Shown: in pieces, positions 5,385-26,600 of the stretch
How the letters are laid out: each line of letters begins with the position of its first letter
Numbering within the stretch: position 1 is the stretch's first letter
Source of the DNA: a virus
Taxonomy: Duplodnaviria; Heunggongvirae; Uroviricota; Caudoviricetes
Direction: 5' to 3' (one strand)
Virus record (IMG/VR): IMGVR_UViG_3300028886_000034
Location: 54,081-118,080 of that record
DNA: 64,000 nucleotides
Program-made: the position numbers and the translations under genes
The notes under the pieces: generated by a model
What the model was told of the DNA's origin: nothing
The model's input: the letters and a program-made list of their open reading frames with translations, nothing else
The model's database searches: none

Positions 5385-5921
5385 ATGAGTATGGAGAAAA
5401 CAATTAAGTTATTTGATTCAGAGTTTAAAAAAGATAGTGTCAAGATTACTCCATTTGAAGCTAGAAAGCTTTTAGAAATGGAACTAGTTTATTGGGATAG
5501 AGATCAAACCTCTCCCTATAAAGCTAGAGTTTTGGTCTTTAAGTATCCCAATCATTATTACCAATATAAAGAAAGTGGGATAACAAATATGAATATGACT
5601 ATAAATAAATGTGAAAATGTGACTAATAATGCCGAACGTTATTATCAGCCAGAAAATGTTAAGGCTATCAGGGAAACTATTGAAGCTGTAATGAAAAACG
5701 CCGGTAAAACAGATCTTAAAGATATTGACTTGGATATGCTTAGTAGTTGTATTAATGCAACTTTCAATAGAAAGAAACTGTTTTATAAATGGTTTGATGA
5801 GTATATTAATGGTAGTGATTGTTCTGAAGAAGAAAGATCTACTGCTTGTGAGTTTTTAGATTGGGTATTTCTGCATAAGATTGATGGAGATAAAACTGGG
5901 GATTTGTATTTTAAAGAGTAA
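5385..5921 (+). CDS. hypothetical protein (178 aa)
   Basis: The ORF has an AAAGGAG Shine-Dalgarno. Confidence 0.65.
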   Translation: MSMEKTIKLFDSEFKKDSVKITPFEARKLLEMELVYWDRDQTSPYKARVLVFKYPNHYYQYKESGITNMNMTINKCENVTNNAERYYQPENVKAIRETIEAVMKNAGKTDLKDIDLDMLSSCINATFNRKKLFYKWFDEYINGSDCSEEERSTACEFLDWVFLHKIDGDKTGDLYFKE

Positions 5922-5926
5922 CTAAA

Positions 5927-6001
5927 CGGGTATTAGCGCAGTCTGGTTAGCGTATCTGCTTTGGGAGCAGAGGGTCGGAGGTTCAAATCCTCCATACCCG
6001 A
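5927..6001 (+). tRNA. tRNA-Pro (anticodon UGG); CCA encoded at 6002-6004
   Basis: The acceptor CGGGTAT/ATACCCG is 7 Watson-Crick bp. The D-arm is GCGC-AGTCTGGTTA-GCGT. The anticodon stem TCTGC/GCAGA closes loop TTTGGGA. The T-arm is GGAGG-TTCAAAT-CCTCC. The discriminator A is followed by CCA. Confidence 0.75.
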
Positions 6002-6118
6002 CCATTAGAATTTAAAGTAAATATTTTAGTATAAACAGAGAGTCTAAGGAGTGGAGCAAAATCCCTCTTGACTCTCTTATTTTTTTATGGTAATATTTGT
6101 ATGGGTGGTGATTGGTAT

Positions 6119-12423: not shown

Positions 12424-12452
12424 TTGACAAATTCTTTTTAGTCTGCTATACT
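12424..12452 (+). promoter_or_regulatory. sigma70-type promoter TTGACA-N17-TATACT
   Basis: The -35 is at 12424-12429 and the -10 at 12447-12452. It lies upstream of the helicase gene. Confidence 0.55.
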
Positions 12453-12485: not shown

Positions 12486-13868
12486 ATGGCATTTATTAAA
12501 GGTCGTATGTATGTAGAAGACTTGACTGAGTTTGATAAAAATACACTCACTATAGCTACTGATGAAGGAGACATCAAGTGTTTTGATGAGATTGAAGTAT
12601 CCGGTAAAAAATATTATCGGATTCCACGTTACTTCAAGCAAGTCAAAGATGTTGAAGACCTCAGTACTGATGGTGAGGATATTGAAATTAATCTTAAGCC
12701 TGAGTTTAAACCTTTGAATGAGCAACAAGAGAATGCGATTAATGCTATAGTAGAAAATGTTCATGGATTAGTTTCTGCCAGAGTCGGATTTGGAAAAACT
12801 TATGTGGCTGTGAATAGTATTACTAAGATTAAGAAGCGTACTCTTATTGTAGTTCATGTATCTACAGAAGACGGCCTCATGGATCAGTGGAAAAACTCCA
12901 TATTGAGATACACTGATCTTAAAGAAGAAGATATCGGGTATCTCAATTCTAAGACAAAAGTAATTGATAAACCTATTTATCTTACTACAGTTCAAACATT
13001 ATTGTCTAGAGTTAAAAGAGATGACCAAGACTTCTTCAACATGATGTATGACGGAAACTTTGGAGTCACCTTTTATGATGAATGTCATATCACTGCATCC
13101 TCTGCTGAATTTAGTGAATCTACTAAAACAGTATTCAGTAAAAGAATGTATGGTCTGAGTGCAACACTAATTAGAAGGGATAGCTTAGCGCCAATCCTTA
13201 TTTGGAATATGGGCAAAACTATTTATGATGATGGGCAATGGTTTGTACTTCCAATTTATGCAGGTCTTTTAGATATCCCAATTAAGATGGGTGGATATGG
13301 TAGATATTTAGAGTATGGTAGTGCTTCCGCTTGGAGTGCTAAATATGCTAAGTTTCTATCTAAAAAAGAAGAGTACTTGCGGTCTATTGCGGTTATAGTA
13401 GATAAATGCTTAGAGCAGGGAAGAGAACCATTAGTTCTTTCAAGCCAAATCAATATATTGTATAGCATTGCACAATTCTCCAAATATCCTGAAGAGATTA
13501 GCATAGTCCATGGTACAGTTAAAAATAAAGATTATGATAAAAGATGTATCCTAGCTACTTTAGGAATGTTCAAAGTAGGTATGGATGTTCCAAGACTTAA
13601 TACTTTAATTTTTGCTACTCCATTGACTGCTAAGAATGGTCTTATTCAGGCTATTGGCAGAGTTGCAAGAGTTTACAATAAAGAACCTAATAAGAAAGTT
13701 ATGCTTATCGATATTGTGAATTCTTCTTATCAAAAAACAGTTGATATGAGAAAGATACGACAAAAGTATTATGGTGAAATTAATGACCATAGTATTGATG
13801 GGTGTATGCAAGTTCAATTGAACTGTATTGATGATGTAGATAAATTGATTAAGTTTTGTAATAAATAA
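12486..13868 (+). CDS. superfamily-2 (DEAD/DEAH-like) DNA helicase (460 aa)
   Basis: A GGAGGGG Shine-Dalgarno precedes it. It carries Walker A GFGKTYVA, the DECH box FYDECHIT and motif VI QAIGRVAR. Confidence 0.75.
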   Translation: MAFIKGRMYVEDLTEFDKNTLTIATDEGDIKCFDEIEVSGKKYYRIPRYFKQVKDVEDLSTDGEDIEINLKPEFKPLNEQQENAINAIVENVHGLVSARVGFGKTYVAVNSITKIKKRTLIVVHVSTEDGLMDQWKNSILRYTDLKEEDIGYLNSKTKVIDKPIYLTTVQTLLSRVKRDDQDFFNMMYDGNFGVTFYDECHITASSAEFSESTKTVFSKRMYGLSATLIRRDSLAPILIWNMGKTIYDDGQWFVLPIYAGLLDIPIKMGGYGRYLEYGSASAWSAKYAKFLSKKEEYLRSIAVIVDKCLEQGREPLVLSSQINILYSIAQFSKYPEEISIVHGTVKNKDYDKRCILATLGMFKVGMDVPRLNTLIFATPLTAKNGLIQAIGRVARVYNKEPNKKVMLIDIVNSSYQKTVDMRKIRQKYYGEINDHSIDGCMQVQLNCIDDVDKLIKFCNK

Positions 13869-13888: not shown

Positions 13889-16468
13889 ATGGCTTCACCA
13901 CTAACTACATATATAAGATGGTTAGCTACTGAAGGAAATGTGCCATTTCCAGAGGAATGTAAGTCTCTTAAGATTTCCTCTATTTTAAGTTTAGCTGAAG
14001 AAGATTTTGAAACATCTATTGTATTGAATCAGCTTTTCAATAATCCTTATGCGTATAAGTATTCTATTGAAGATATTGCTAAAGTACATAAGAAGTATAA
14101 CACTATTTATAAGTTTAATTATATTCCTGTTAAACCCGTGTTTCCCAAAATTGAAGAAAAACCTAAAAAGAAAGAAACTGATGTAGTTATTAATAAAAAG
14201 AGTAAATATAAATTGTATAGCTCTAAAGAGAAAGAAGATTCTAAGCCAACTGATGGGTATTCTAAGCCTATGCTGTTTAACTTCTATTCAGACTATGTGA
14301 ATAAGGAATTTGCATATGTTATTAGAGTTGGTGATAAAAGATATATTACTCAGACTGATGATATGGTTATGATGTATACCGGTAAAGATGATTATTTAGA
14401 TGTTCATGATATTGCAGGATTAAAAGGTGAACTGGTACATTATGGTAAAAGAAAATACATTATTGAACAAATTCAGTCAGAATCTTCTTATAAAGCTATT
14501 TATAATGTAGATTTTAATTTGGCTATTCATAAGAATTATCTTTGGAAAAAAGAAAACAAAGATAATCTTGGTCATTATAAACTTAGAGTAAATTATGTTG
14601 ATATTGAGTTGTATCAAGAAGGATATGGTATTATTGACTTTGCTGATATTAAGAAGTCAGCTAGAGTTATTCCCGTTAACTTGATTACTTTGTATGATAA
14701 TTATACTGACAAATATTATACTTTGGTCTATAATTTAAACAAAGCTAAAATTAATACTGAACAAATTAAGGAATATCTTGATTACAAAGATGAGTGTATT
14801 TTCAATGTAGAAATCTTTGATAAAGAAAGTGATATGTTCCTTAAGTTCTTCAGTTTATTGAAAGAATTTGATCCAGATCTAGTATCTGGGTGGAATAGTG
14901 ATGAATTTGATTTACCTTATATTAAGTATAGAGCAGAATTTTTAGGAATTGAACATCCTAAACTGGCTCATAATAAAACTTTTGAAATTGAATATAAAAC
15001 AGTTATGAATAAACATGAAGAGGAAGTTACTTATTGTATTCCTCATATTGGTTATTCTGTAGCACTTGATTATCAAAGATGCTATAAGGAAAGAACTCTT
15101 GGTAAAAAAGAGAATTATAAGCTTGGAACTATTTCTAAAATTGAGTTGGGTATTACTAAACTTGATACTGAAGATGGCATGGATAAAATCTTTAGGGAAG
15201 AACCTGAAAGGTTTATTGCATACAATATTAACGACGTTCATCTTGTAAGAAAATTGGATGAAAAGTTGAAGTATATTGACCTTAATTTTAGTATAGTCCA
15301 GTTGGCTAATATCTCATGGGATAGTATTTATACTACTCTACATATTTGTGATGGGATTCTTTATGAGTATCTTATGGATAGAGATAAAGTAGCCAAAATT
15401 GTTAAAGCTGGAATTGAGAAGAAAAAGTTTGCGGGTGCTTATGTTAGAGAACCAATTAGCGGTGTACATGATTGGTTGGGTGATTTGGATCTTACTTCTC
15501 TTTATCCATACATTATGGCAAGATATAACATTAGTGCAGATACCTATGTAGGAAAAGTTGATACAGATACTGCTAGACAATATATCTTTAATAAAGAAGA
15601 ATTTGTTAATTCCAATACAGATGTAAGTTTGTATTTGAAAGTTCAAGGTATTGAGAGATTGTATAAATTGTCTGCTAAAAGTTTTCATGAAAGAATGCTT
15701 AAGAATGGGTATATTATTACCCAGATTGGCACTATCTTTAAGAAGCATGAAGATAAGCAGTCAGTTCTTTATGATATTGTAGATATGCTCATTAAAAAGA
15801 GAAAAGAGTATAAAGATCTTATGAAGGATAATATTGGTAAAGACCAAATGCTAGTTGACAGATATGATACTATGCAGAAAACAGTTAAGATCATTACTAA
15901 TTCTCTTTATGGTGGTCAGTCCAATATTAGATTCAGATTGTATGATTATGAGGTTGCCAGAAGTATTACTTCTACTGGTAGAGAAATTGCTAAAATCGCC
16001 GCAGTAGTTGCTAATAATTGCATTAATCAAATGATTCAAAATAAATCTAATAAATTTGACCATGTAGATATTCCTTTTGATTGGGATTACCAATCAGAAC
16101 AAGCTCTACCAAATGTAATTTATGGAGATTCAGTTACTGGAGATTCTTTAATCAGAACTGGTAAAGGTAATATAACTATTAAAGAACTTTGGGATATGTG
16201 TGCTTCGGATAATAAAGTGTGGCATTATCTCGGAAAAAATTATATTCAGAATCCTAATAAATGCGTACTTGGATATGATGACAGACTTTATTTCCCAAGG
16301 TATCTGATGAAGCATAAAACTAATAAGAAACTGTATAAGATTACTACTGAATCTGGAAAAACAGTCACTGTAACTGAAGATCATAGTTTGGTAGTAATGA
16401 GAAATAATGTTAAAACTATAATTAAACCAACAGAATTAGTTGTAACAGACCAACTAATCACCTTATAA
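13889..16468 (+). CDS. family-B DNA polymerase, N-terminal gene (palm motifs A, B and first half of C) fused to an N-terminal split-intein fragment (about 112 aa)
   Basis: Pol B motif A is DLDLTSLYPYIM and motif B is KIITNSLYGG. The motif C tripeptide YGD sits at 16121-16129. It is followed directly by an intein block A (SVTGDSLIRTG...IKEL) and block B (VTVTEDHSLVV), then a stop. Confidence 0.9.
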   Translation: MASPLTTYIRWLATEGNVPFPEECKSLKISSILSLAEEDFETSIVLNQLFNNPYAYKYSIEDIAKVHKKYNTIYKFNYIPVKPVFPKIEEKPKKKETDVVINKKSKYKLYSSKEKEDSKPTDGYSKPMLFNFYSDYVNKEFAYVIRVGDKRYITQTDDMVMMYTGKDDYLDVHDIAGLKGELVHYGKRKYIIEQIQSESSYKAIYNVDFNLAIHKNYLWKKENKDNLGHYKLRVNYVDIELYQEGYGIIDFADIKKSARVIPVNLITLYDNYTDKYYTLVYNLNKAKINTEQIKEYLDYKDECIFNVEIFDKESDMFLKFFSLLKEFDPDLVSGWNSDEFDLPYIKYRAEFLGIEHPKLAHNKTFEIEYKTVMNKHEEEVTYCIPHIGYSVALDYQRCYKERTLGKKENYKLGTISKIELGITKLDTEDGMDKIFREEPERFIAYNINDVHLVRKLDEKLKYIDLNFSIVQLANISWDSIYTTLHICDGILYEYLMDRDKVAKIVKAGIEKKKFAGAYVREPISGVHDWLGDLDLTSLYPYIMARYNISADTYVGKVDTDTARQYIFNKEEFVNSNTDVSLYLKVQGIERLYKLSAKSFHERMLKNGYIITQIGTIFKKHEDKQSVLYDIVDMLIKKRKEYKDLMKDNIGKDQMLVDRYDTMQKTVKIITNSLYGGQSNIRFRLYDYEVARSITSTGREIAKIAAVVANNCINQMIQNKSNKFDHVDIPFDWDYQSEQALPNVIYGDSVTGDSLIRTGKGNITIKELWDMCASDNKVWHYLGKNYIQNPNKCVLGYDDRLYFPRYLMKHKTNKKLYKITTESGKTVTVTEDHSLVVMRNNVKTIIKPTELVVTDQLITL

Positions 16469-16487
16469 GGAAAGGAGAATGATTATT

Positions 16488-17018
16488 ATGAGTGATAATT
16501 TAGTAACTTTTGAAAACCTACAGAGATACCATAATCAATTGGAGACAAAGATTACTCAGGAACTTAATGAGAAAGTGTCTGCTAGTCAGTTTAGAAATCA
16601 TACACATGAATTGGCTAATTTAACTGTTAGTAATGATGCCAGACCTACTACCTTAGCAGATATTAATAGACTTGCTGGCTTTAGAATGTGTTCTATAGAT
16701 GAGAACGCTATGGGTTCTATCCAGTTGAATACTAACAATTATGATATGTTTTATTTAGTATTAGCTGGTTCGGTTACAATATCTATTTTGGATGTGCCTA
16801 CAGATGCATCAATTACTAATAACAGAAGTACTTTAGCAAGGCATATCAAAGTGATTATTAAGAATCCTTCTAAAGGGATTACTTGGCCTGATTCAGTTGT
16901 TTGGATGAATGGTATTGAGCCAGGTACTTCTGGTAATAATAGTGTTGATATCGTGGACATGTTTACTCCAAATGGTGAAGTTTGGTTTGCCAATACTTTA
17001 AAGAGTTGGACTTTATAA
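16488..17018 (+). CDS. hypothetical protein (176 aa)
   Basis: AAAGGAG lies 10 nt before the ATG at 16488. It is the first gene of the cargo between the two polymerase halves. Confidence 0.55.
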   Translation: MSDNLVTFENLQRYHNQLETKITQELNEKVSASQFRNHTHELANLTVSNDARPTTLADINRLAGFRMCSIDENAMGSIQLNTNNYDMFYLVLAGSVTISILDVPTDASITNNRSTLARHIKVIIKNPSKGITWPDSVVWMNGIEPGTSGNNSVDIVDMFTPNGEVWFANTLKSWTL

Positions 17019-17048
17019 AAATAAACTATAATAGAAAGGAAGATCTAA

Positions 17049-17384
17049 TTGGCTAATTTGAAAAAATATACCAGAGCTGAAGCTTTGGAAATTTGCAGAA
17101 GAATGGGTTTGGCTGAAGCTCCGCTTAGTAATGATAGTGTTTTGATTGGAACTAATGATAAAGGACATATTTACAAGTTTCCAATTAAAACAAAAGAGGA
17201 TTTTGAAGCAGAGGCTGCTAGTAAGCAGACTAAGACTGAAGAGGTCAAAGAACAACCTGCTGAAAAGCCTGTTGAAAAACCTGTTGAAAAACCTGTTGTT
17301 GAAGAAGTTAAGGAAGAGGTTACTCCTCCTGCTCCAGTTAAGAGAAAAAGAGGTAGACCTCCTAAGAAAAAGAAAGCTGAGTGA
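17049..17384 (+). CDS. small DNA-binding-like protein with PVEK repeats and C-terminal AT-hook (111 aa)
   Basis: It carries the tandem repeat KPVEKPVEKPV and the motif KRKRGRPPKKKK, whose GRP core is typical of an AT-hook. Confidence 0.55.
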   Translation: MANLKKYTRAEALEICRRMGLAEAPLSNDSVLIGTNDKGHIYKFPIKTKEDFEAEAASKQTKTEEVKEQPAEKPVEKPVEKPVVEEVKEEVTPPAPVKRKRGRPPKKKKAE

Positions 17385-17389
17385 TTTTG

Positions 17390-18007
17390 ATGAACTCAGT
17401 GTCAAAAAATATAATGGAGCTTATGAAAGTAATAGCTACTAATCAGATGAAATTGGCTAAAAAAGTTGATCTGATGAATAAAAGGTTTAAACAGTTTTTA
17501 GCTGAAGCTACTACTACATCTCCATTAGATTTTAATACACTTAGTGTTAAGGATGAACCAGTAGAAGATTTCTCATCATTTAGTATTGAGGAGGAGTCAC
17601 CTAAGCCAGTAGAAAAACTTACTTCTGGTGTCAGAGCTATTACTTCTAAGAATAGTAATCCTTTCGATCCTACCTGGACATCTCAAAAAGATGCTATTAA
17701 AAAAGAAGAAGAAAAACTTCCAAAGGGAATCTCTAGAACTAAATCTAGTGAAGAAATGTTTCCTGAGGTAGTAGGTATTGACGAACAAGTTAAACAATTG
17801 GAAGCTGAAATGGCTGCCTTAGATAGACAAGCTCCTAAGAAGCCTAAGATGCCTAAAAAGCCATTACCTACTATGGAAGAATTAGCAATGAAAATGAAAT
17901 CAGCACCAGAACCATTAGCAGCTCCTGTAACAAAGGCTAAAAGAAAAAAAGCAACCACTAAAAAAGAAGATGCTAATGAAAATAAACAAATCTCTGAGGT
18001 CTCTTGA
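17390..18007 (+). CDS. Lys/Glu-rich hypothetical protein (206 aa)
   Basis: The ATG at 17390 is in frame with the track ORF that starts at GTG 17381. Confidence 0.55.
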   Translation: MNSVSKNIMELMKVIATNQMKLAKKVDLMNKRFKQFLAEATTTSPLDFNTLSVKDEPVEDFSSFSIEEESPKPVEKLTSGVRAITSKNSNPFDPTWTSQKDAIKKEEEKLPKGISRTKSSEEMFPEVVGIDEQVKQLEAEMAALDRQAPKKPKMPKKPLPTMEELAMKMKSAPEPLAAPVTKAKRKKATTKKEDANENKQISEVS

Positions 18008-18022
18008 TCTCAGAGATTTTTT
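17988..18022 (+). terminator. rho-independent terminator
   Basis: An 11-bp stem AAATCTCTGAG/CTCAGAGATTT is followed by a T6 run. It overlaps the stop codon at 18005-18007. Confidence 0.7.
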
Positions 18023-18025
18023 ATA

Positions 18026-18054
18026 TTGACATGGCTTTGATTTTCTGATATACT
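18026..18054 (+). promoter_or_regulatory. sigma70-type promoter TTGACA-N17-TATACT
   Basis: The -35 is at 18026-18031 and the -10 at 18049-18054. It directly follows the terminator and precedes the 18087 gene. Confidence 0.55.
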
Positions 18055-18086
18055 CCTTATATAAAATTGAAAGGAGCAATGATTAA

Positions 18087-18467
18087 ATGTCTGAAACAAA
18101 AGTAGTTACTGGTGCAGGTCATTTTGATGTTATGTATTTTGGAATGGACAGCAGAATTGCTGAGGATATCTATAAACCATATTCTGAATTTGGAGTAAAA
18201 GCACATTATGAAGCTTTGAAAGAAGCTATTCAGAAACTTCCTAGCGATAAAATTCCATCATATATTATTGTAGTTGATAGAGCTACTCTTAAGCCTAAGG
18301 TATTTGTTAATCAAAAAGAAGTTAGACTTAGACCTGGTGAACTTGAACAGAAAATGGAAAAATATAAGAAATACTTTAAAGATAAAACTTATGATGATGC
18401 AGTTAGAGTTATTAAATCAGAAAATACTTCTAACTTTTATACAGAACGACCCCTTACAGAACGATGA
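18087..18467 (+). CDS. hypothetical protein (126 aa)
   Basis: A GAAAGGAG Shine-Dalgarno precedes it. Confidence 0.6.
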   Translation: MSETKVVTGAGHFDVMYFGMDSRIAEDIYKPYSEFGVKAHYEALKEAIQKLPSDKIPSYIIVVDRATLKPKVFVNQKEVRLRPGELEQKMEKYKKYFKDKTYDDAVRVIKSENTSNFYTERPLTER

Positions 18468-18630
18468 CACAATTACTATTTGATTTTATGCCATGTAAGA
18501 CTGAGAAAGAGCTGTTGATTATCCAATCTATTTGGAATAAGCTGTGTGAATATGATAAGGTTCATTTAGATGATGATACTTGGTTTAGAAAGAATTGGGT
18601 AAATGAGGATATTAGAAGGAGATACTTATA

Positions 18631-18966
18631 TTGATAACCAGAGATGACGTTATTGATGAATGGGTATATTGTAATTATGATTCAGATAATGAATCTTCTA
18701 TAACTACTAGAGATCATCTCCCAAAAGAATTGATACAAGATATTGTGGATTATGCTAATAGATTTCTTGAGAATCCTAAAAATCTTGATCAAACTGAACT
18801 GGATAATTTTTTTAAATTATCTGATCAACGTAAAAAAGAAGTTAGTATCTATAAAGCTTTTGAAGAATGTATAGCTGCATATATACATGATTTGGGATTA
18901 ATTCTGGATTCTGCTTATGACAATATGTCTATCATTTTAAAAGGCAGGGAATGTGAATGCAAGTAA
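18631..18966 (+). CDS. hypothetical protein (111 aa), probable TTG start
   Basis: This is a track ORF. AGGAG lies 13 nt upstream and there is no in-frame ATG near the 5' end. A 48-aa ORF (18488-18634) could also be coding. Confidence 0.4.
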   Translation: MITRDDVIDEWVYCNYDSDNESSITTRDHLPKELIQDIVDYANRFLENPKNLDQTELDNFFKLSDQRKKEVSIYKAFEECIAAYIHDLGLILDSAYDNMSIILKGRECECK

Positions 18967-19637
18967 CACAAGGTAATGTATTGTCACACTATAGAAAATT
19001 TAATCAGATTGCCCAGGTAACCTCTACTAAACTCCAAGGACCAGTTATTAGAGCTATGACTGCTAAAGGAAATGAATATCTTCAGAATCCAGAAACACTT
19101 CCAAATATGCCTGAAGATAAAAAGTACTTACCTAAGCAAATTAAAGAGATTTGTATTCTTAGAGCTATTCAGGAAAATGTTCCTAAAGATCCTACTCTTA
19201 GAAAAAGACTTGAAGCTAGAATTCAGTATATTCTAGAGAATCATACTGAAGAGCAGATTATTGAGCAGAAAAAGAAAGATGGTACTTTTAATAAACCTAT
19301 AGAACCTATTGTAGAAGGCCCTATTGATAAAGAATTTTTTATTAAAGTTTATAAAAGCCTTATTGATCCAGTTACTAAAATTAAATCTAAAAAGTTTAAT
19401 GAGAATACACTGATTAAATTTGTTAGTAGATCAAATAAATATTTCCACGAAATAACTTCTCATCAATATGATGATGAAATAATTCAAAAAGCTTGTGCAG
19501 TATTAACTGAAGTTAGTAGAGATATTAAAGATCAAAAAGCTGTTGATAGAGCTATTGACCTTTTGGAAGGTCATTATGATGATGGGATGGCTGATGTTTT
19601 TTCACAAATGAGCAGAGGTGATAATGATGATTTCTAA
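18957..19637 (+). CDS. hypothetical protein (226 aa)
   Basis: ORF only. Confidence 0.55.
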   Translation: MQVTQGNVLSHYRKFNQIAQVTSTKLQGPVIRAMTAKGNEYLQNPETLPNMPEDKKYLPKQIKEICILRAIQENVPKDPTLRKRLEARIQYILENHTEEQIIEQKKKDGTFNKPIEPIVEGPIDKEFFIKVYKSLIDPVTKIKSKKFNENTLIKFVSRSNKYFHEITSHQYDDEIIQKACAVLTEVSRDIKDQKAVDRAIDLLEGHYDDGMADVFSQMSRGDNDDF

Positions 19638-20049
19638 AAAAGATGTTCTTAATGAATATGCTAAGTTTGATGATAATGCACTTCAAAAACATACAGATCT
19701 TAATAAGAAAACTGTAGAAAGTATTGCTGAACTGGCTACTAAATTATATGAATCTGATATTGGAAAAGATTTTGAAGAAGATGTTTGTATTGATTGTATG
19801 AATGATTCACAAAGAAAACAATATTATATCCTAGAATCAATTGTAAGACATTTTAATGATGATGACCCATATTTGTGCTCTTTTATTGAAGATAAACAAG
19901 AACGCATTAAAGATGAAGTTTATTTTAGATCAGATAAGTTTTTGCTAGAAACTGATGAATTTGATGATAGTTATGGTGATTACCTAGGTAATGACTTTAA
20001 ATATGATATCAGAAGGGATGATGACGATTATGAATGTAACTTTGATTAG
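19618..20049 (+). CDS. acidic hypothetical protein (143 aa)
   Basis: An AGAGGTG Shine-Dalgarno precedes it. Confidence 0.5.
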   Translation: MIMMISKKDVLNEYAKFDDNALQKHTDLNKKTVESIAELATKLYESDIGKDFEEDVCIDCMNDSQRKQYYILESIVRHFNDDDPYLCSFIEDKQERIKDEVYFRSDKFLLETDEFDDSYGDYLGNDFKYDIRRDDDDYECNFD

Positions 20050-20701
20050 TAATACTGAGGATCCTGAATTTGTAATTACTTTAGCTGCTGCCACATGTTA
20101 TTCAGATTTGACTCTTGACAAATTGAAAGAGAAGTGTTTAAATAAAGAGTATCAAGACAAGATGGTAAAAATGCTTCTGGAAAATGGTCATGAATCTCCA
20201 CTTGAACATGCTAATTTTACCTTTTTTATTGAAGGTATTAGTAGAAGTGTTAGCCATCAGCTTGTTCGTCATAGGATTGCTTCTTATTCTCAGAGAAGTC
20301 AAAGATATACTACGATGCGACCTGAAGAGTTTACTATCCCAGAATCAATTAAAAATAATCCTCATGCACAGGCTTTGTTTGAACAGCATCTTAAGGATAC
20401 ATTTGATTTGTATAATGCATATATTGAAGATGGAATTCCTAAAGAAGATGCTAGAGAGATTCTTCCTAATGCTACTCAGACTTCTTTGGTTATGACTATG
20501 AATCTAAGAGAGCTTAGGCACTTTATGGAATTGCGAATGTGTATGAGAGCTCAAAGTGGTATTAGAGAATTGGCTGATAGGATCTATATTATCTTCCAGA
20601 ATCAGTTTCCTTTGTTGATTATTGGTTGTGGTCCTAAGTGCTGGTTTGGAAAATGCACTGAAAAGCATAGGACTAAGGATTGCCCTAAGGAGAAAATTTA
20701 A
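20030..20701 (+). CDS. thyX: flavin-dependent thymidylate synthase ThyX
   Basis: It carries the ThyX signature RHRIASYSQRSQRY (RHR-X7-S) with the upstream context ESPLEHANFTFFIEG. The start is trimmed to the ATG at 20030. Confidence 0.8.
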   Translation: MNVTLISNTEDPEFVITLAAATCYSDLTLDKLKEKCLNKEYQDKMVKMLLENGHESPLEHANFTFFIEGISRSVSHQLVRHRIASYSQRSQRYTTMRPEEFTIPESIKNNPHAQALFEQHLKDTFDLYNAYIEDGIPKEDAREILPNATQTSLVMTMNLRELRHFMELRMCMRAQSGIRELADRIYIIFQNQFPLLIIGCGPKCWFGKCTEKHRTKDCPKEKI

Positions 20702-20753
20702 TAATTAGATATATTATAAACTAGAGTTTATAAATGAAAAGAGGGTATATGCT

Positions 20754-21863
20754 GTGGCTCAGTTAGAATATTGTTTGATAGACGGTAGCATTAAGAATAT
20801 TTCTGAAGTAGTGTCTGGGTTGCATAATTATATCTGCCCTATATGCGGGGAGCCTTTAGTAGCTAAAAAAGGTAATATTGTTGGTCATCATTTTTCACAT
20901 TTACCGAATAGTAAATGTCCAGCTTCAGTTTATGTTCATGGAGAGACTAATTTACATTTAGGCATGAAAAAGATTATTATGGAAACAGGCCTATGTAGGA
21001 TGCCTGAATTAGATATTGATTGGAATGGTAATATTATAAATCCTAATACGCTTAGTATGGGCACATCATATATTAGGATTAAAGAATCAAATTTTTATAA
21101 ATTTAATAAGGGTTATCTTGAAAAAAATTTAAATTGTGCTAATGGGAAATATATTAGACCCGATTTGACATGCTATGATGTTAGTTATGAGGAAATGTTT
21201 GGATTTAATAGCTCTCCATGTAGCGTGTATCTTGAAGTAACAGTAACCCATGGAGTAGATGATGTAAAACTAGATTTAATTAAATCTATAGATACTAATA
21301 ATTTTTATGTTGTAGAGTATGACTTATCTAAAGTAAATAGAGAATCTACATATGACGAATTAAAACAGGCATACTTAAGCGGCAGTATTCCATGCAATTG
21401 GATTCATAGAAGTGGTGAGAGCGACCTAGTTTGTGATAGATCTTATGAATACGCTTTTCGAGTTACAAACGGAGTTAAATGGTATGTAGATAGGTTTTAT
21501 GACAATCTAACTGATGAGGGATTAGATGCTTTAAAAGAGACTGACATTATAGAATATATGGAACAAAAGAAGTTTAAGAATATATTAGAAAATAAAAATT
21601 TTAATGGATTAGATCTAACAAGACAGTGGACATTTTTTAGAAACGAATTTCCAAGGTCGATTGTTACATCAAACGTTAATTTTTGCCCACAATTTCAGGA
21701 CTACCATATAAGGAAAAAGGCACCAGTGATGATTCAGTGCTTATCGTGTAAGCACTGTAAGAGAGCAACTTATTTTAATAGTAATAGCTATCCTAAATTT
21801 ATTATCTTATGTGAAGATAAGACAGCTCGTAATGGATATAAGGTTTTTAATAAAGCCTCTTGA
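20754..21863 (+). CDS. CoiA-like zinc-finger/nuclease family protein (369 aa), GTG start
   Basis: The N-terminal signature YICPICGEPLVAKKGNIVGHHFSHLPNSKC matches the competence CoiA family pattern CPxCx...KxG...HFxH...C. AGAGGG lies 9 nt before the GTG at 20754. Confidence 0.5.
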   Translation: MAQLEYCLIDGSIKNISEVVSGLHNYICPICGEPLVAKKGNIVGHHFSHLPNSKCPASVYVHGETNLHLGMKKIIMETGLCRMPELDIDWNGNIINPNTLSMGTSYIRIKESNFYKFNKGYLEKNLNCANGKYIRPDLTCYDVSYEEMFGFNSSPCSVYLEVTVTHGVDDVKLDLIKSIDTNNFYVVEYDLSKVNRESTYDELKQAYLSGSIPCNWIHRSGESDLVCDRSYEYAFRVTNGVKWYVDRFYDNLTDEGLDALKETDIIEYMEQKKFKNILENKNFNGLDLTRQWTFFRNEFPRSIVTSNVNFCPQFQDYHIRKKAPVMIQCLSCKHCKRATYFNSNSYPKFIILCEDKTARNGYKVFNKAS

Positions 21864-21925
21864 TAAATGTTTTATATAGTATAGTTATGTTATAACAAAA
21901 GACAATTGAGGGGGAAACCAAGGCA

Positions 21926-23410
21926 ATGCAACTTACTGCTAGTTTTAACTTTTATAGAAGACCTGGAAATGAAGAAGTATATGATTGGCTTGTAGAAGCA
22001 TGTACTGTTGCTAAGAATTTGTATAATCAGACACTGTACTATGCTTATGAGTTTAAAGAAGCTTATGACCCGGTTAGAGAACAATATAAAAAAGAAACTG
22101 GTAAGTCTTTTCCTTGGTTTCCAGACGAATACGTTGGTTTTGAAAAACCTGTCGATGATTTTTTTAAAGTAATGAGTTTGAGGAGATATGCCAGTGAACA
22201 AGATGAGAACGGTGAGTATTATACTAAAAATCTTGAGGGTAAAAGTAATTGGGAACTACTTAAAAATCTTGTAGGTAGAGATGCAACTACAGAGGTAATT
22301 AGAACATTACTATCTAAAAATTTAAAATCATATGGAAGATCCCTTGGGGATTGGAGTAGGCACCCGGAAAAATATAAAGGAATGCCAAGAAAGCCCGGTT
22401 TTTATAAAAAAGGAGATCTGTGCCCATTATACTTTTCTGGTACTTCTATTAAAATTAACTCAAAAACTAGAAGTCTTGTGTTTCCTAAGCCGAGGGGAAC
22501 GGATGGATATAATAAAAGCATTTATATCCCACTTCAAAAATTGCCACATAATTCGGAGTATGTAAAAGGAAAAAGAATTGACCAAGTTAGGATAATTCCT
22601 AAAAAAGGATATTTTAAGATTGAAATAATTTATACGTATAATGAATCGGTTCCTAAACTTGATAATAAACGATATCTTAGTATTGATTTGGGTATTAGAA
22701 ATTTTTGTACTATAATTACTAGTGATGATAAACTTAATCCAGTTATCCTTGATGGTAATGCTTTGAAATCTAAAATTAGATTTTATCATTTAATGGTAGA
22801 TAAACTTAAACATAAGATTGAAGTTATTACTGATGAAAATGGGAAGAAAAGACCTAAGCAGTATACTACTAAGAGAATTGAAGCAATGACAAAGAATCAT
22901 ATTAATCGTATAAATTATATCGTTGATGCATATACTAAGTATATTGTTAGATATTGCCTCCATTATAATATTTGTAGAGTTATTTGCGGTTGGAATAAAG
23001 ATATGAAGCAGAAGATCAATACTGGGCATAAAAATAATCAAATTATTGTTAACTTTCCTTTTAAAAAACTACTTGACAAACTCGAATATAAGTGTAAAAT
23101 GAGGGGCATAAGCTTCGAGATTGTTGAAGAGTCTTATACTAGTAAAACAGATCATCTTAGAAATGCTCCCTTGGCTACTAAAGAAGACCCTGAAACTAGA
23201 GATGAGGCTAACTTTGGTAAAAGAATTCACAGAGGATTGTTTTCTTCTGGGGTTGGAAAGTTGGTGAATGCTGATGTAAATGGCGCTATGGGTATTATGA
23301 GAAAAGCAATTCCAGATTTTAGTTGGGTTGGATACCATCCATTTCATCCAGTTAGGATGAGAGTTAAAGACGTAATTGAAGGTCTAAAGTATTCTAAATT
23401 CCCTAAATAA
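21926..23410 (+). CDS. TnpB/Cas12-like RuvC-fold protein (494 aa), candidate compact type V CRISPR effector
   Basis: The RuvC-I motif is LSIDLGIRNF (D254). A TnpB-like helix NHINRINYIVDAYTKYIV follows. The YTSK motif is EIVEESYTSKTDH and RuvC-III is NADVNGAMGI (D450). The gene lies directly upstream of a CRISPR array. No CxxC zinc finger is present, and the usual IxxEDLN position reads VICGWNKDM. Confidence 0.7.
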   Translation: MQLTASFNFYRRPGNEEVYDWLVEACTVAKNLYNQTLYYAYEFKEAYDPVREQYKKETGKSFPWFPDEYVGFEKPVDDFFKVMSLRRYASEQDENGEYYTKNLEGKSNWELLKNLVGRDATTEVIRTLLSKNLKSYGRSLGDWSRHPEKYKGMPRKPGFYKKGDLCPLYFSGTSIKINSKTRSLVFPKPRGTDGYNKSIYIPLQKLPHNSEYVKGKRIDQVRIIPKKGYFKIEIIYTYNESVPKLDNKRYLSIDLGIRNFCTIITSDDKLNPVILDGNALKSKIRFYHLMVDKLKHKIEVITDENGKKRPKQYTTKRIEAMTKNHINRINYIVDAYTKYIVRYCLHYNICRVICGWNKDMKQKINTGHKNNQIIVNFPFKKLLDKLEYKCKMRGISFEIVEESYTSKTDHLRNAPLATKEDPETRDEANFGKRIHRGLFSSGVGKLVNADVNGAMGIMRKAIPDFSWVGYHPFHPVRMRVKDVIEGLKYSKFPK

Positions 23411-23520
23411 ACAGGGGATGTATTTGGGTAAGTTTGGCAAACCCATTTAAATAAGATCATCAGAATCAGCGATGTGAATTTAAATAAAGTTAATGAAAAT
23501 TAACTGCCTCCGGATTTATT

Positions 23521-23542
23521 CGGATACGATACTTTTTATTTG
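23521..23542 (+). ncRNA. candidate tracrRNA anti-repeat
   Basis: The segment CGGATACGATACTTTTTATTTG can pair with the repeat 3' half CAAATAAGGGTATCGTAT. ATACGATA pairs with TATCGTAT (8 bp) and ATTTG pairs with CAAAT (5 bp), linked by A-U and G-U pairs. It lies between the effector gene and the array on the same strand. Confidence 0.4.
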
Positions 23543-23621
23543 TTTTTACGTATGGAAAATGCTGTTTTTTACAACTGAATATTGAATAAACTCAGTATTT
23601 GTAAGAGTTTGCGTATAGGAT

Positions 23622-24247
23622 ACTATACGGTACTTACAAATAAGGGTATCGTATAACAAAAGAAGATACAACAGACGATAAAAAAGAACTATACGGTACT
23701 TACAAATAAGGGTATCGTATAACATGATATTAAAGAGTATGCTGATTTGGGTGACTATACGGTACTTACAAATAAGGGTATCGTATAACTCTAACTATTA
23801 CTGCTATTACCTCATCATCACTATACGGTACTTACAAATAAGGGTATCGTATAACGCTATCTTCTTCCTGCATGGTCCATCACATACTATACGGTACTTA
23901 CAAATAAGGGTATCGTATAACAGTGATGTAAAAATGAAATTTAATGATGTTACTATACGGTACTTACAAATAAGGGTATCGTATAACAGACATTTTAAAC
24001 ATGAGTATTTTAGCACTATACGACACTTACAAATAAAGAGTATCGTATAACTTGACGTGCTCTTTCAGTTCTGGTATACTCACTATACGTTACTTATAAA
24101 TAAGGGTATCGTATAACTATGAGCTTTTGGAGTAGTGGAATTGTTTTACCATGTGGACTTACAAATAAGAATATCGTATAATTGATACCTGATTAGTATT
24201 GTATTGCCCATACTATACAGGACCTACAAATAAGAATATTGTGTAAT
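23622..24247 (+). CRISPR. CRISPR array with 10 repeats (35-36 nt; consensus A-CTATACGGTACTTACAAATAAGGGTATCGTATAAC) and 9 unique spacers of about 28-31 nt
   Basis: Repeats begin at 23623, 23689, 23755, 23821, 23887, 23953, 24016, 24083, about 24149 and 24213. The first six are identical and the last four are progressively degenerate. The AT-rich leader is therefore at the 5' side (23410-23620). Confidence 0.85.
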
Positions 24248-24249
24248 TA

Positions 24250-24278
24250 TTGACAAAGTATGCCGAGTCTGATAGAAT
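24250..24278 (+). promoter_or_regulatory. sigma70-type promoter TTGACA-N17-TAGAAT
   Basis: The -35 is at 24250-24255 and the -10 at 24273-24278. It abuts the last degenerate repeat and precedes the intein-C/polymerase gene. Confidence 0.5.
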
Positions 24279-24301
24279 CATTATATGGGTGGTGAAGGAA
24301 A

Positions 24302-25297
24302 ATGAAGATAGAGAGTGTTAAATCAATAGAAGTGATTACTCCAGAAGAACCTATTGATGTATATGATATTGAAATGCCAGATGATGATCATTGTTTTTTT
24401 GCAAATGACATATTAGTTCATAATACAGATTCAATTTTTACTAAATATGGCGATGCATTGAAAGCAATTTATGGAAAAGATTATGATGAAATTTCTGACA
24501 AGGAAAAGATAGATAAAGTTATTGAATTGAATGAATCTGTAGCACAGTATATTAATAATGTAATGATTCATGAACTTCTTAATATGCATAATACATCTCC
24601 TACAGAATCTTCGGCTAAAAAGTTTAACTTTAATTTTAAACAGGAACTTGTTATTAGAAGAGCTTTGTTTCTGGAAATCAAAAAGAAGTATGCTATTTGG
24701 TTAGTTTCCAAAGAAGGAAAGCCTTTGGATAAAATCAGTATTAGTGGTATAGAAGTTGTAAGATCTGATTATCCTCAATTTAGCAGAGATATGTTAAATG
24801 ATTTTATTGAGCATATCCTTAAGAAAGGAATCAGTAAAGAAGAGCTTACCACTAAGATTGATGATTATAGAGGTAGATATGTTGAGCAGTTAAAAACAGG
24901 TACAGTTTATTGTGCTATTCCAAGTTCTTGGAATAAAGAAAACTATGCCCAAGATAGACTGCCAAGATCAGTTAAATCTATGTTGGTATATAATGCAATT
25001 TATGGAAGTACCTTTAGAGTAATGGATAGAGGCTATAGATTTGACTTGGAAGAAATTGATATAGGTCAATTTGATTCAGATACACAAAGACGCTTGACAG
25101 ATTTAGTTCGATCTGGTACAATGGGTAAAGAAGGTAAGTTAGATTGTATTACTATTCCTACTAATGGTACATTAGATTTAACTAAGTTTAGAATTAATTA
25201 TAATAAAATGCAAGAATTTGCAGTTGATGATCGTATTTCTAATTTTTGTGATATCTTTGGGATTAAAGTTGATGATCCTAATGATATAGGTTGGTAG
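24302..25297 (+). CDS. C-terminal split-intein fragment (about 41 aa) fused to the C-terminal part of family-B DNA polymerase (rest of motif C plus thumb)
   Basis: The intein blocks F/G end in VYDIEMPDDDHCFFANDILVHN. The C-extein follows immediately and starts TDSIFTKYGD, which completes YGD|TDS. The KKRY-type motif EIKKKYAIW lies downstream. An AAGGA Shine-Dalgarno precedes the gene. Confidence 0.85.
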   Translation: MKIESVKSIEVITPEEPIDVYDIEMPDDDHCFFANDILVHNTDSIFTKYGDALKAIYGKDYDEISDKEKIDKVIELNESVAQYINNVMIHELLNMHNTSPTESSAKKFNFNFKQELVIRRALFLEIKKKYAIWLVSKEGKPLDKISISGIEVVRSDYPQFSRDMLNDFIEHILKKGISKEELTTKIDDYRGRYVEQLKTGTVYCAIPSSWNKENYAQDRLPRSVKSMLVYNAIYGSTFRVMDRGYRFDLEEIDIGQFDSDTQRRLTDLVRSGTMGKEGKLDCITIPTNGTLDLTKFRINYNKMQEFAVDDRISNFCDIFGIKVDDPNDIGW

Positions 25298-26077: not shown

Positions 26078-26515
26078 ATGGCAGCTCAGTTTAATCAGGT
26101 TATTCTTTGTGGAAATCTTGGTGCAGATCCTTTTTATAAGGTTTATGAATCAGGTCGTTATTTCACCTCTTTTAGGCTCTTTGTGAATAGAAGCTATTAC
26201 ACTAAGGGTGAAAGTGGAGAGCTTGAACGTAAGGAAGCTACTGATGCACCTCTTGTTCAGTGCTGGGGCAAGAATGCTGAAAGAATGGCTAAATACCTTA
26301 AAAAGGGTAGAAATGTTATGATTATTGGCCATATTGAAACTCGAATGTGGGAAGATGAAAATAACCCTGAAAAGAAGAACACTATTACAGTGGTTATGGC
26401 AGATGATTTCAAATTCCTGGATTCCCCTAAGCGTGATAATCCTAGCACATCATATACTTCTGAGGATAAGCTGGAAGCACCTGTTGGTGATGTGATTAAG
26501 GATGTTGACCTTTAA
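26078..26515 (+). CDS. ssb: single-stranded DNA-binding protein
   Basis: The N-terminal OB-fold signature is MAAQFNQVILCGNLGADPFYK, followed by an acidic/aromatic C-terminal tail. Confidence 0.75.
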   Translation: MAAQFNQVILCGNLGADPFYKVYESGRYFTSFRLFVNRSYYTKGESGELERKEATDAPLVQCWGKNAERMAKYLKKGRNVMIIGHIETRMWEDENNPEKKNTITVVMADDFKFLDSPKRDNPSTSYTSEDKLEAPVGDVIKDVDL

Positions 26516-26518
26516 GGC

Positions 26519-26547
26519 TTGACATAAAACATTCGAAGTGGTATACT
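26519..26547 (+). promoter_or_regulatory. promoter-like TTGACA-N17-TATACT overlapping the ssb terminator
   Basis: The -35 is at 26519-26524 and the -10 at 26542-26547. The -10 lies inside the 5' arm of the terminator hairpin. It may fire into the helicase gene. Confidence 0.35.
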
Positions 26548-26579
26548 TCTCATATAGAGAGGTGTACCACTTCTTTTTT
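26535..26579 (+). terminator. rho-independent terminator
   Basis: A 12-bp stem GAAGTGGTATAC/GTGTACCACTTC with one mismatch is followed by a T6 run. Confidence 0.7.
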
Positions 26580-26600
26580 ATATAAGGAGGGTTAGTTTAA

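What the first reader, a model, noticed from the sequence alone, without database searches (positions are those of the whole stretch)
13889..25297. Family-B DNA polymerase divided into two genes by a naturally split intein in motif C, with halves 7.8 kb apart
Gene 13889-16468 encodes Pol B motifs A (DLDLTSLYP) and B (KIITNSLYGG) and ends motif C at YGD (16121-16129). It continues without a break into intein blocks A (SVTGDSLIRTG..IKEL) and B (TVTEDHSLVV), then stops. Gene 24302-25297 opens with intein blocks F/G (VYDIEMPDDDHCFFANDILVHN). It then continues as TDSIFTKYGD, restoring YGDTDS, and carries the KKRY-like EIKKKYAIW thumb motif. The intein's first residue is Ser, its last is Asn, and the +1 extein residue is Thr, all compatible with splicing. 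The two halves are separate genes with their own Shine-Dalgarno sites. Active polymerase would therefore need protein trans-splicing or non-covalent assembly.
Basis: partly seen in the sequence, partly recalled or inferred. Interest (0 to 1): 0.85.

Follow-up and report, generated by a model that had tools for sequence, protein, structure and literature searches.

The report
Phage DNA polymerase split by intein
A large phage encodes its replicative DNA polymerase as two separate genes 7.8 kb apart, each ending or starting with half of a self-splicing protein element (a split intein) that should stitch the two halves together. The sequence evidence is solid, but the same arrangement is already known from an archaeon and from several phages.

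Summary
ORF 13889-16468 encodes the exonuclease, motif A, motif B and the YGD of motif C of a T4-type family-B polymerase, followed by a 112-aa N-intein and a TAA stop. ORF 24302-25297 starts with a 41-aa C-intein ending in HN, then continues as TDS and the thumb domain.

All class-1 splicing residues are present: Ser1, the NX Lys-His, block B TxxH, the penultimate His, the terminal Asn and Thr+1. They are conserved in 21 N-halves and 26 C-halves that reach down to 38% identity. The fused halves model as a HINT fold. The best match is the crystal structure of the trans-splicing Aes123 PolB1 split intein.

The split is not an assembly artefact. Sixteen independent contigs carry the identical N-half. 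Eight loci keep both halves 4.0-7.8 kb apart, always with thyX between them.

The kind is already known. Nanoarchaeum equitans PolB is split at the same YGD|TDS site. Aeromonas, Campylobacter, Pseudomonas and Tenacibaculum phages have split PolB inteins two residues downstream. Klebsiella phage KP13-7 uses the identical site.

What is new is modest: a conserved multi-gene gap in a phage. In this window the gap has also captured a TnpB-derived Cas12-like gene with a CRISPR array.

The parts
12424..12452 (+). Promoter-like site (TTGACA-17-TATACT with TG) ahead of the helicase / PolB N-half operon
   Evidence: The same kind of site lies 55-63 nt upstream of the helicase gene in 5 of 5 loci. Its function is inferred.
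12486..13868 (+). ResIII/DEAD-box helicase gene directly upstream of the N-half, probably co-transcribed with it
   Evidence: Pfam ResIII 2.5e-17. The same neighbour is present in all related loci.
13889..16129 (+). PolB N-extein, 747 aa: N-terminal domain, 3'-5' exonuclease motifs (DIE 14597-14614, NSDEFDLPY 14894-14920, YNINDV 15221-15247), motif A 15482-15508, motif B 15887-15916, and the YGD of motif C at 16121-16129
16130..16468 (+). N-intein, 112 aa plus the TAA stop: Ser1 (16130), block A SVTGDSLIRTG, NX motif K-H (within 16304-16321), block B TVTEDHSLVV (16367-16396)
16479..20701 (+). Conserved gap cargo: eight small genes of unknown function followed by thyX (19991-20701). A terminator-like hairpin lies at 17988-18019 and a promoter-like site at 18026-18054.
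   Evidence: thyX lies between the halves in all 8 loci that hold both halves.
20754..24250 (+). Variable part of the gap, specific to this window and a few relatives: CoiA_N-like gene 20754-21863, TnpB-derived Cas12-like gene 21926-23410, tracr-like anti-repeat 23523-23556, and a CRISPR array 23622-24247
   Evidence: This block is absent from L001, L002, L006, L008, L009, L023 and L024.
24250..24278 (+). Promoter-like site (TTGACA-17-TAGAAT with TG) 24 nt upstream of the C-half ATG
   Evidence: An equivalent site lies 50-65 nt upstream of the C-half in 5 of 7 loci. Its function is inferred.
24302..24424 (+). C-intein, 41 aa: block F VYDIEMPDDDHCFFA (24359-24403) and block G NDILVHN (24404-24424), ending in His-Asn
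24425..25297 (+). PolB C-extein, 290 aa plus the TAG stop: Thr+1, the TDS of motif C, and the thumb domain with KKKY (24674-24700)

Best explanation
The replicative family-B DNA polymerase of this roughly 288-kb myophage is made as two precursor proteins of 100.7 kDa and 38.4 kDa. The first carries the N-extein plus a 112-aa N-intein. The second carries a 41-aa C-intein plus the C-extein. After translation the two intein fragments associate and fold into one HINT domain, which then runs the class-1 oxyester splicing pathway. Ser1 performs an N-O acyl shift, assisted by the NX Lys-His and the block B Thr/His. Thr+1 then attacks in a transesterification step. The terminal Asn cyclises, assisted by the penultimate His, and an O-N shift follows. 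The result is a peptide bond between Asp747 and Thr+1, which restores YGDTDS in the catalytic palm and gives a 1037-aa, 121-kDa polymerase plus the excised intein. The anatomy, the residues, the fold, the conservation and the separate expression signals are shown here. The association and the chemistry are inferred by homology to the Aes123 PolB1 and N. equitans Pol split inteins. The arrangement is old in this phage clade. It corresponds to the late 'genomic uncoupling' stage of the Dassa-Pietrokovski gene-breaking model. The gap has filled with cargo (thyX and small genes) and continues to capture mobile elements next to the C-half.
For: The Pfam domains are complementary across the two ORFs. 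The fused intein matches PDB 9HTH (Aes123 PolB1 split intein) at E 1.4e-15 and the gp41-1 split intein at 5e-6. [quoted passage not shown] AF2 with a 33-row alignment gives pLDDT 78 and pTM 0.75. The 49 Foldseek PDB hits at E <= 0.001 are all inteins or related HINT (intein-like) domains, with 9HTH first. YGD|S and the NX K/R-H are kept in 21 of 21 N-halves, block B TxxH in 19 of 21, and HN|TDS in 26 of 26 C-halves, while the intein as a whole diverges to 24-30% minimum pairwise identity. IntN has pI 9.4 and net charge +6; IntC has pI 4.05 and net charge -9. The spliced sequence is colinear with RB69 gp43. The identical N-half occurs on 16 contigs from several samples. Both halves are present 4.0-7.8 kb apart in 8 loci. 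Promoter-like sites are conserved upstream of both transcription units. The site definition YGD|TDS = pol-c and the N. equitans split at that position come from PMC549080.
Against: No experiment was run, so splicing is inferred. Charge complementarity between IntN and IntC holds only in the closest relatives; more distant N-inteins are net negative. Two distant relatives, P0019 and P0020, have Glu in place of the block B His, so not every member need splice by the canonical route. PMC10189870 does show that this His can be dispensable in a Ser1 intein with an NX His. The model has low confidence at residues 96-117, next to the split point. The promoter scan as a whole is not enriched over shuffled sequence.
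Confidence: 0.85

Rival explanations
1. The intein halves no longer splice and serve only as a high-affinity dimerisation module, so the polymerase works as a non-covalent heterodimer. Precedents are the intein-less split gp43A/gp43B of some T4-like phages, the split PolB of Methanothermobacter, and the Aeh1 NrdA fragments.
For: Non-covalent split polymerases and a split RNR exist (PMC2677866, PMC3045599). Two distant relatives have lost the block B His. Nothing here shows the chemistry directly.
Against: Every residue needed only for chemistry, and not for binding, is invariant across the 26 C-halves or 21 N-halves: Ser1, the terminal Asn, Thr+1 and the penultimate His. An unspliced complex would leave about 150 residues of intein inside the YGDTDS catalytic loop of the palm. 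The closest solved relative does splice (PMC11923092).
Confidence: 0.1
2. The split is an assembly or gene-calling artefact, or one half is a decaying pseudogene, and the real genome has a contiguous polymerase gene.
For: The window is metagenome-like sequence, and a repeat array lies just upstream of the C-half.
Against: The identical N-half, with the same downstream genes, occurs on 16 contigs from JGI and Logan samples. Eight loci from different assemblies, at 41-81% identity, show the same split, each with a stop after the N-intein and a start before the C-intein. All 26 C-half clusters are 308-347 aa. About 100 of the best 150 representative matches to the N-intein end at the protein's C-terminus. 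The N-half stop is TAA, so the possible amber suppressor tRNA in the window is irrelevant.
Confidence: 0.01
3. The 7.8-kb gap is an excisable element that is removed at the DNA level during infection, as with the skin or other intervening elements. Excision would recreate a contiguous gene that contains a cis-splicing intein.
For: The gap contains a TnpB-family gene, and mobile-element genes occur at this position in relatives.
Against: No direct repeat of 9 nt or more flanks the gap. No integrase or recombinase is present. Most relatives have the gap without any TnpB. The N-half has its own stop codon, and the C-half has its own start codon and a conserved promoter-like site. The gap contains conserved housekeeping cargo (thyX).
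Confidence: 0.02

Closest known systems
Nanoarchaeum equitans Pol split intein (NEQ068/NEQ528; Choi et al. 2006, as cited in PMC2677866 and PMC549080)
   Same: A family-B polymerase broken at the same position (pol-c, YGD|TDS) by a naturally split, cysteine-independent intein. The halves sit at separate genomic places with no homing endonuclease between them. Trans-splicing was shown experimentally.
   Different: It is an archaeal hyperthermophile, not a phage, and needs 50-70 C (PMC10189870). By my own recollection the halves lie much further apart (tens of kb).
[quoted passage not shown]
   Same: A phage gp43-type PolB with a naturally split Ser1 intein that carries the NX His, with an IntN of about 115-120 aa and an IntC of about 39-46 aa. 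Aes123 PolB1 is the closest solved structure to the window's intein (9HTH, E 1.4e-15). Trans-splicing was demonstrated in vitro.
   Different: In the genomes read here (Aes508 and CP21) the insertion point is two residues downstream (Y-x-D-T-D|S, Ser+1), whereas the window has Y-G-D|T-D-S with Thr+1. The paper reports Ser at +1 for the three new inteins. In Aes508 and CP21 the halves are about 1 kb apart with one endonuclease-like ORF between them, against 4-8 kb of multi-gene cargo here.
Pseudomonas jumbo phages PA5oct / MIJ3 and Tenacibaculum phage PTm1 split PolB (PMC6892783)
   Same: Jumbo phages whose PolB is split by a split intein. The N-intein is 35-37% identical to the window's.
   Different: The site is DTD|S with Ser+1. 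A single Hef-like, HNH or VSR endonuclease gene lies between the halves, which is the 'fractured gene' layout.
Klebsiella jumbo phage KP13-7 (OP617745, Alcyoneusvirus), unannotated
   Same: The junctions are identical: VIYGD|SVTGDS... and ...ILVHN|TDSVY, so the site and the Ser1/Thr+1 pair match. It is split into separate ORFs.
   Different: The halves are about 1 kb apart with one ORF between them. All three ORFs are annotated 'hypothetical protein'. N-intein identity is 37% over 94 aa.
Contiguous pol-c inteins of Thermococcales PolB and Mimivirus PolB (PMC549080)
   Same: The same insertion site YGD|TDS, with Ser1, a terminal Asn and Thr+1.
   Different: They are cis-splicing and carry a LAGLIDADG endonuclease domain. 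Sequence similarity is only weak (PI-PkoII 2cw7, E 0.028).
Cyanobacterial DnaE split intein and the 'fractured genes' model (PMC2677866)
   Same: A replicative polymerase split by an intein. The model predicts endonuclease invasion, then loss of the endonuclease, then genomic uncoupling. The window fits the last stage.
   Different: The polymerase family differs (PolIII alpha), the intein uses Cys1, and the host is cellular.

Membership tests
Class-1 intein (HINT domain), naturally split | A nucleophile (Ser or Cys) as the first intein residue, directly after the N-extein | tested here: met
   Ser748 of the N-half, codon at 16130. YGD|S is present in 21 of 21 homologues.
Class-1 intein (HINT domain), naturally split | Block B (N3) TxxH motif | tested here: met
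   T829-E-D-H832 within TVTEDHSLVV. Conserved in 19 of 21 homologues; two have E in place of H.
Class-1 intein (HINT domain), naturally split | Block G: penultimate His, terminal Asn, and a +1 Ser/Thr/Cys on the C-extein | tested here: met
   ...ILVH40-N41|T42DS. Invariant in 26 of 26 C-halves.
Class-1 intein (HINT domain), naturally split | NX motif (Lys/Arg-His), specific to Ser1 oxyester inteins (PMC10189870) | tested here: met
   LMK-H-KT at 16304-16321. K/R-H is present in 21 of 21 homologues.
Class-1 intein (HINT domain), naturally split | The two fragments together form one complete HINT fold | tested here: met
   The AF2 model of the fused fragments has pLDDT 78 and pTM 0.75. The 49 Foldseek PDB hits at E <= 0.001 are all inteins or related HINT domains, with 9HTH best. 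This is an in-silico result only.
Class-1 intein (HINT domain), naturally split | The fragments are encoded by separate genes, with the break at the canonical endonuclease-insertion position (IntN about 100-120 aa, IntC about 35-45 aa) | tested here: met
   The fragments are 112 aa and 41 aa. The first gene has a TAA stop and the second its own ATG. The genes are 7,833 nt apart.
Class-1 intein (HINT domain), naturally split | Protein trans-splicing activity | not testable with these tools
   This needs co-expression or in-vitro mixing of the precursors.
pol-c intein allele of family-B polymerases | Insertion exactly between D and T of YGDTDS (PMC549080) | tested here: met
   ...VIYGD|S... and ...HN|TDSIF.
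pol-c intein allele of family-B polymerases | The intein sequence is closer to other pol-c alleles than to inteins at other sites | tested here: inconclusive
   The best solved relative, 9HTH at 1.4e-15, sits at the DTD|S site. The archaeal pol-c intein PI-PkoII scores only E 0.028. KP13-7, at the same site, is no closer than PA5oct at the other site; both are about 37% identical. No intein tree was built.
'Fractured gene' arrangement (Dassa et al. 2009, PMC2677866) | Split-intein halves adjacent to each other, separated only by one free-standing homing-endonuclease gene | tested here: not met
   The gap holds 12 ORFs plus a CRISPR array, and no recognisable homing endonuclease. The CoiA-like ORF shows no similarity to the Aes508 or PA5oct intervening ORFs. 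The relative L009 does have an HNH_3/NUMOD4 gene directly before the C-half.
T4/RB69 gp43-type family-B DNA polymerase | Exo I-III, motifs A, B and C, and the KKRY thumb motif, in colinear order | tested here: met
   Pfam DNA_pol_B_exo1 at 4.7e-16 and DNA_pol_B at 2.1e-26. The spliced sequence aligns to RB69 gp43 residues 131-609 and 704-812.

The most novel reading that the evidence does not exclude
This phage clade may have kept its polymerase in two uncoupled pieces for a long time because the arrangement is useful, not merely tolerated. Under this reading the polymerase becomes active only when both separately transcribed precursors meet and splice, which would make splicing a post-translational gate on replication. 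The gap between the halves, flanked by two indispensable gene halves, would serve as a protected landing pad that accumulates cargo and mobile elements. That cargo would include thyX, HNH endonuclease genes, and here a TnpB-derived tracrRNA-dependent CRISPR module. A second element of novelty is that this would be a mesophilic, naturally split Ser1/Thr+1 intein. I found no characterised example of that among the papers read.
Probability: 0.12. Interest if true: 0.55.

Novelty: new member of a known kind. Interest (0 to 1): 0.3.

Why it matters
For annotation, the two ORFs should be named as N- and C-terminal precursors of one polymerase. Several public records, such as Klebsiella phage KP13-7, still call their equivalents hypothetical.

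For evolution, the clade gives a viral example of the last stage of the gene-breaking model. The endonuclease has been lost, the halves are uncoupled, and a conserved thyX-containing cargo block lies between them. The boundary next to the C-half still attracts mobile elements.

For biotechnology, naturally split inteins that do not depend on cysteine nucleophiles are rare and sought after (PMC12707363). This family offers dozens of natural mesophilic Ser1/Thr+1 variants at a different junction (D|T) from the characterised phage inteins. Note that the window's own intein has three non-catalytic cysteines.

None of this changes what is understood about inteins.

Tried and rejected
1. A megablast of the whole region against INPHARED phages found no match. 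The phage has no close sequenced isolate.

2. I tested whether the CoiA_N-like ORF in the gap is a relic of the endonuclease that broke the gene. BLASTP against the Aes508 VSR-like ORF and the PA5oct Hef-like ORF gave nothing. PHROGs and NCBIfam also gave nothing.

3. A single-sequence AF2 model of the fused intein was unusable, with pLDDT 45. A rebuilt alignment with separate N and C rows worked.

4. For the excisable-element idea, I looked for direct repeats at the gap borders and found none of 9 nt or more.

5. For stop-codon read-through through the possible tRNA(CUA), the N-half stop is TAA, so the idea does not apply.

6. I made exact-match scans for the CRISPR repeat in viral, genome and metagenome collections. 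I also scanned for spacers w2, w3, w4 and w7 and for one L017 spacer. All scans gave zero hits. BLAST of all spacers against the held loci and the window gave only chance-level matches.

7. The Rfam gathering-threshold scan of the window found only tRNAs.

8. Charge complementarity as a general property of the clade was rejected. It holds only for the closest relatives.

Full report

- ORF 13889-16468 (859 aa) contains the 3'-5' exonuclease motifs, motif A (DLDLTSLYP, 15482-15508) and motif B (KIITNSLYGG, 15887-15916). It reaches YGD at 16121-16129.
- From 16130 it continues for 112 residues with SVTGDSLIRTG (block A), an LMKHKT segment and TVTEDHSLVV (block B). It ends with a TAA stop.
- ORF 24302-25297 (331 aa) opens with 41 residues ending in VYDIEMPDDDHCFFANDILVHN. 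It continues with TDSIF and further on with EIKKKYAIW.
- Pfam sees the two products as complementary. DNA_pol_B model positions 39-232 and Intein_splicing 8-93 fall in the first product. Intein_splicing 121-155 and DNA_pol_B 231-354 fall in the second.
- Joined at the predicted junction, the exteins give a 1037-aa, 121.4-kDa protein. It is colinear with RB69 gp43, including the KKRY thumb motif.
- The N-half has a strong ribosome-binding site (AAGGGAGG, 9 nt upstream). The site for the C-half is weaker or oddly spaced.

**Not an artefact.**

- The identical 859-aa N-half occurs on 16 contigs from several JGI and Logan samples, with the same neighbouring genes.
- Homologues of the N-half down to 38% identity all stop shortly after the N-intein. 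These are P0002-P0021, including a sub-clade with a fused UDG domain.
- All 26 C-half clusters are 308-347 aa and begin with a C-intein.
- In eight loci that hold both halves (the window, L001, L002, L006/L007, L008, L009, L023 and L024), the halves lie on the same strand, 4.0-7.8 kb apart. thyX always lies between them.
- The nearest contiguous, intein-free relative, P0022, is only 31% identical.
- No direct repeats flank the gap.

**Is it an intein that can splice?**

- Every residue of the class-1 pathway is present: Ser1, the block B Thr and His, the penultimate His, the terminal Asn and Thr+1. The Lys-His 'NX' motif, described as a signature of Ser1 oxyester inteins, is also present (PMC10189870).
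- Across the clade, YGD|S and K/R-H are kept in 21 of 21 N-halves, TxxH in 19 of 21, and HN|TDS in 26 of 26 C-halves. The rest of the intein drifts to 24-30% minimum pairwise identity.
- The fused fragments match PDB 9HTH at E 1.4e-15. 9HTH is the crystal structure of the naturally split, trans-splicing Aes123 PolB1 intein of Aeromonas T4-like phages (PMC11923092).
- An AlphaFold2 model built with a 33-row alignment has pLDDT 78 and pTM 0.75. It is weak only around the split point.
- All 49 Foldseek PDB hits at E <= 0.001 are inteins or related HINT (intein-like) domains, led by 9HTH.
- In the window, the N-intein is basic (pI 9.4, net +6) and the C-intein acidic (pI 4.05, net -9). This fits electrostatic capture, but it does not hold in distant relatives.
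- Splicing itself is inferred, not shown.

**Expression.**

- Near-consensus TTGACA-N17-TAnAnT sites with an extended -10 lie upstream of the helicase/N-half operon (12424-12452) and 24 nt upstream of the C-half ATG (24250-24278).
- Equivalent sites occur at the same relative position in 5 of 5 relatives for the helicase/N-half operon and in 5 of 7 for the C-half, even though the intergenic sequence has diverged.
- A strong hairpin terminator at 17988-18019 separates the transcription units.
- Both halves therefore appear to be served by the same promoter class. This argues for simultaneous rather than staggered synthesis. It is an inference.

**Comparison with what is known.**

- The site YGD|TDS is the classical pol-c allele. 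Thermococcales and Mimivirus PolB inteins share it, and it is the point where the N. equitans PolB is broken into two genes by a split intein (PMC549080).
- Trans-splicing of the N. equitans protein was shown by Choi et al. 2006 (cited in PMC2677866). It is described as the first naturally split cysteine-less intein (PMC10189870).
- In phages, split-intein PolB genes are annotated in Aeromonas phages Aes508 and AS-gz, Tenacibaculum phage PTm1 and Campylobacter phage CP21. They are also described for Pseudomonas jumbo phages MIJ3 and PA5oct (PMC6892783).
- The Aes123, CP21, LCGC14 and GOM-OPS-1 inteins have been studied biochemically (PMC11923092, PMC12707363).
- In the genomes read here (Aes508, PA5oct, PTm1 and CP21), these inteins sit two residues downstream (DTD|S, Ser+1). 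A single endonuclease-type ORF of about 1 kb lies between the halves.
- Klebsiella jumbo phage KP13-7 has exactly the window's junctions (VIYGD|SVTGDS......VHN|TDSVY). There the ORFs are all annotated as hypothetical.
- A full HMMER scan of 1.84 billion representative proteins with the N-intein found 891 clusters at E <= 1e-3 and 102 at E <= 1e-10. In about 100 of the best 150, by my count from the table, the match ends at the protein's C-terminus, which is the split form.
- The kind is therefore common as well as known.

**What is particular here.**

- The halves are separated by a conserved block of eight small genes plus thyX, not by a homing endonuclease.
- The stretch between thyX and the C-half is variable. 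It holds unknown genes in L006 and L008, minus-strand genes in L001, and an HNH_3/NUMOD4 endonuclease gene in L009.
- In the window this stretch holds about 3.5 kb: a CoiA_N-like gene, a TnpB-derived gene and a CRISPR array. That accounts for the larger gap (7.8 kb against 4.0-6.4 kb elsewhere).
- This matches the final 'genomic uncoupling' step of the gene-breaking model of Dassa et al. (PMC2677866), here in a virus.

**Side observation: the CRISPR module.**

- The 494-aa product of 21926-23410 passes the NCBIfam guided_TnpB cut-off (112.9 bits against a cut-off of 100). It hits PADLOC Cas12u3 and Cas12f models only weakly.
- It keeps the RuvC D254/E402/D450 triad.
- It has only five close clusters (52-99% identity). 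Identity then drops to ordinary 404-430-aa TnpBs at 33-37%.
- It is followed by a ten-repeat array with a 36-nt repeat and spacers mostly 30 nt long. The last repeats are degenerate.
- Relatives sit at the same place in related phages, with their own, different repeats (L016 and L017).
- In all three loci a same-strand anti-repeat upstream of the array pairs with the local repeat. The duplex energy is -28 to -29.5 kcal/mol, against -16 to -17.5 +/- 2.7 for shuffled sequence. This co-variation points to a tracrRNA.
- No cas1 or cas2 gene is adjacent. No protospacer was found.
- Phage-borne miniature TnpB-like Cas12 systems are already described (for example bioRxiv 10.1101/2025.01.20.633832 and PMC12141684). 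Whether this one belongs to a named subtype was not resolved.

**Verdict.** It is a new member of a known kind. Interest is moderate to low, at 0.3.

Noticed in passing
window 21926-24250: A 494-aa TnpB-derived Cas12-like gene (21926-23410) with an intact RuvC D254/E402/D450 triad and no Zn-finger cysteines. It is followed by a tracr-like anti-repeat (23523-23556) and a 10-repeat CRISPR array (23622-24247; 36-nt repeat, spacers mostly 30 nt). Relatives at 52-85% identity sit at the same position in related phage contigs (L015-L017). L016 and L017 have different repeats and matching anti-repeats. No cas1 or cas2 is adjacent, and no spacer target was found.
   Followed up: partly
window 20754-21863: A 369-aa ORF with a CoiA_N-like zinc-ribbon N-terminus (Pfam 9.6e-11) and no other recognisable domain. 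It is present only in this window's version of the gap. It is not similar to the endonuclease ORFs of other split PolB loci.
   Followed up: partly
window 93-6004: A tRNA cluster. ARAGORN tRNAs, including one with a CUA (amber-reading) anticodon at 1827-1920. Rfam did not report that one at gathering threshold but found another tRNA at 2037-2107. TAG is used as a stop in 6 of 58 long ORFs, including the PolB C-half, and ORFs are intact under code 11.
   Followed up: partly
L015 2726-4501; L015 4504-5094; L009 15934-16593: In a related phage contig, thyX itself carries a contiguous LAGLIDADG intein (591 aa; Thy1 3e-58, LAGLIDADG_3 1.6e-12). HNH_3/NUMOD4 free-standing endonuclease genes follow thyX in L015 and L009. 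In L009 the endonuclease gene lies directly upstream of the PolB C-half. The thyX-to-C-half stretch looks like a hotspot for mobile elements.
   Followed up: partly
proteins P0014-P0021 (e.g. L002 10001-13267): More distant relatives (38-41% identity) have a UDG (uracil-DNA glycosylase) domain inserted in the N-terminal part of the PolB N-half. They are still split by the same intein. P0022 is a contiguous, intein-free UDG-PolB fusion.
   Followed up: no
proteins P0019, P0020: Two N-halves have Glu in place of the block B histidine (VTEDES) while keeping Ser1 and the NX Lys-His. They may be non-canonical or weakened splicers.
   Followed up: no
L019 (Klebsiella phage KP13-7, OP617745, 350363-355126): An isolated jumbo phage has a PolB split at exactly the same YGD|TDS site by a related split intein, with one ORF of about 1 kb between the halves. 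All three ORFs are annotated 'hypothetical protein'.
   Followed up: partly
window 12424-12452, 18026-18054, 24250-24278, 25094-25122; hairpin 17988-18019: Four near-consensus TTGACA-17-TAnAnT sites with an extended -10 TG, three of them just upstream of gene starts, and one strong terminator-like hairpin (14-bp stem plus a T-run). The sites before the helicase and before the PolB C-half are positionally conserved in relatives.
   Followed up: partly
window 50238-52472; 9672-11207; 26078-28292: A tail-sheath gene (Phage_sheath_1C 1e-10), a Metallophos (SbcD/Mre11-like) gene, an SSB-like gene whose equivalent in related loci carries Pfam SSB, and a DnaB-like helicase mark this as a contractile-tailed phage. 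The longest contig carrying the identical N-half is 288 kb, and a relative contig is 275 kb, so it is probably a jumbo phage. G+C is about 30%.
   Followed up: no
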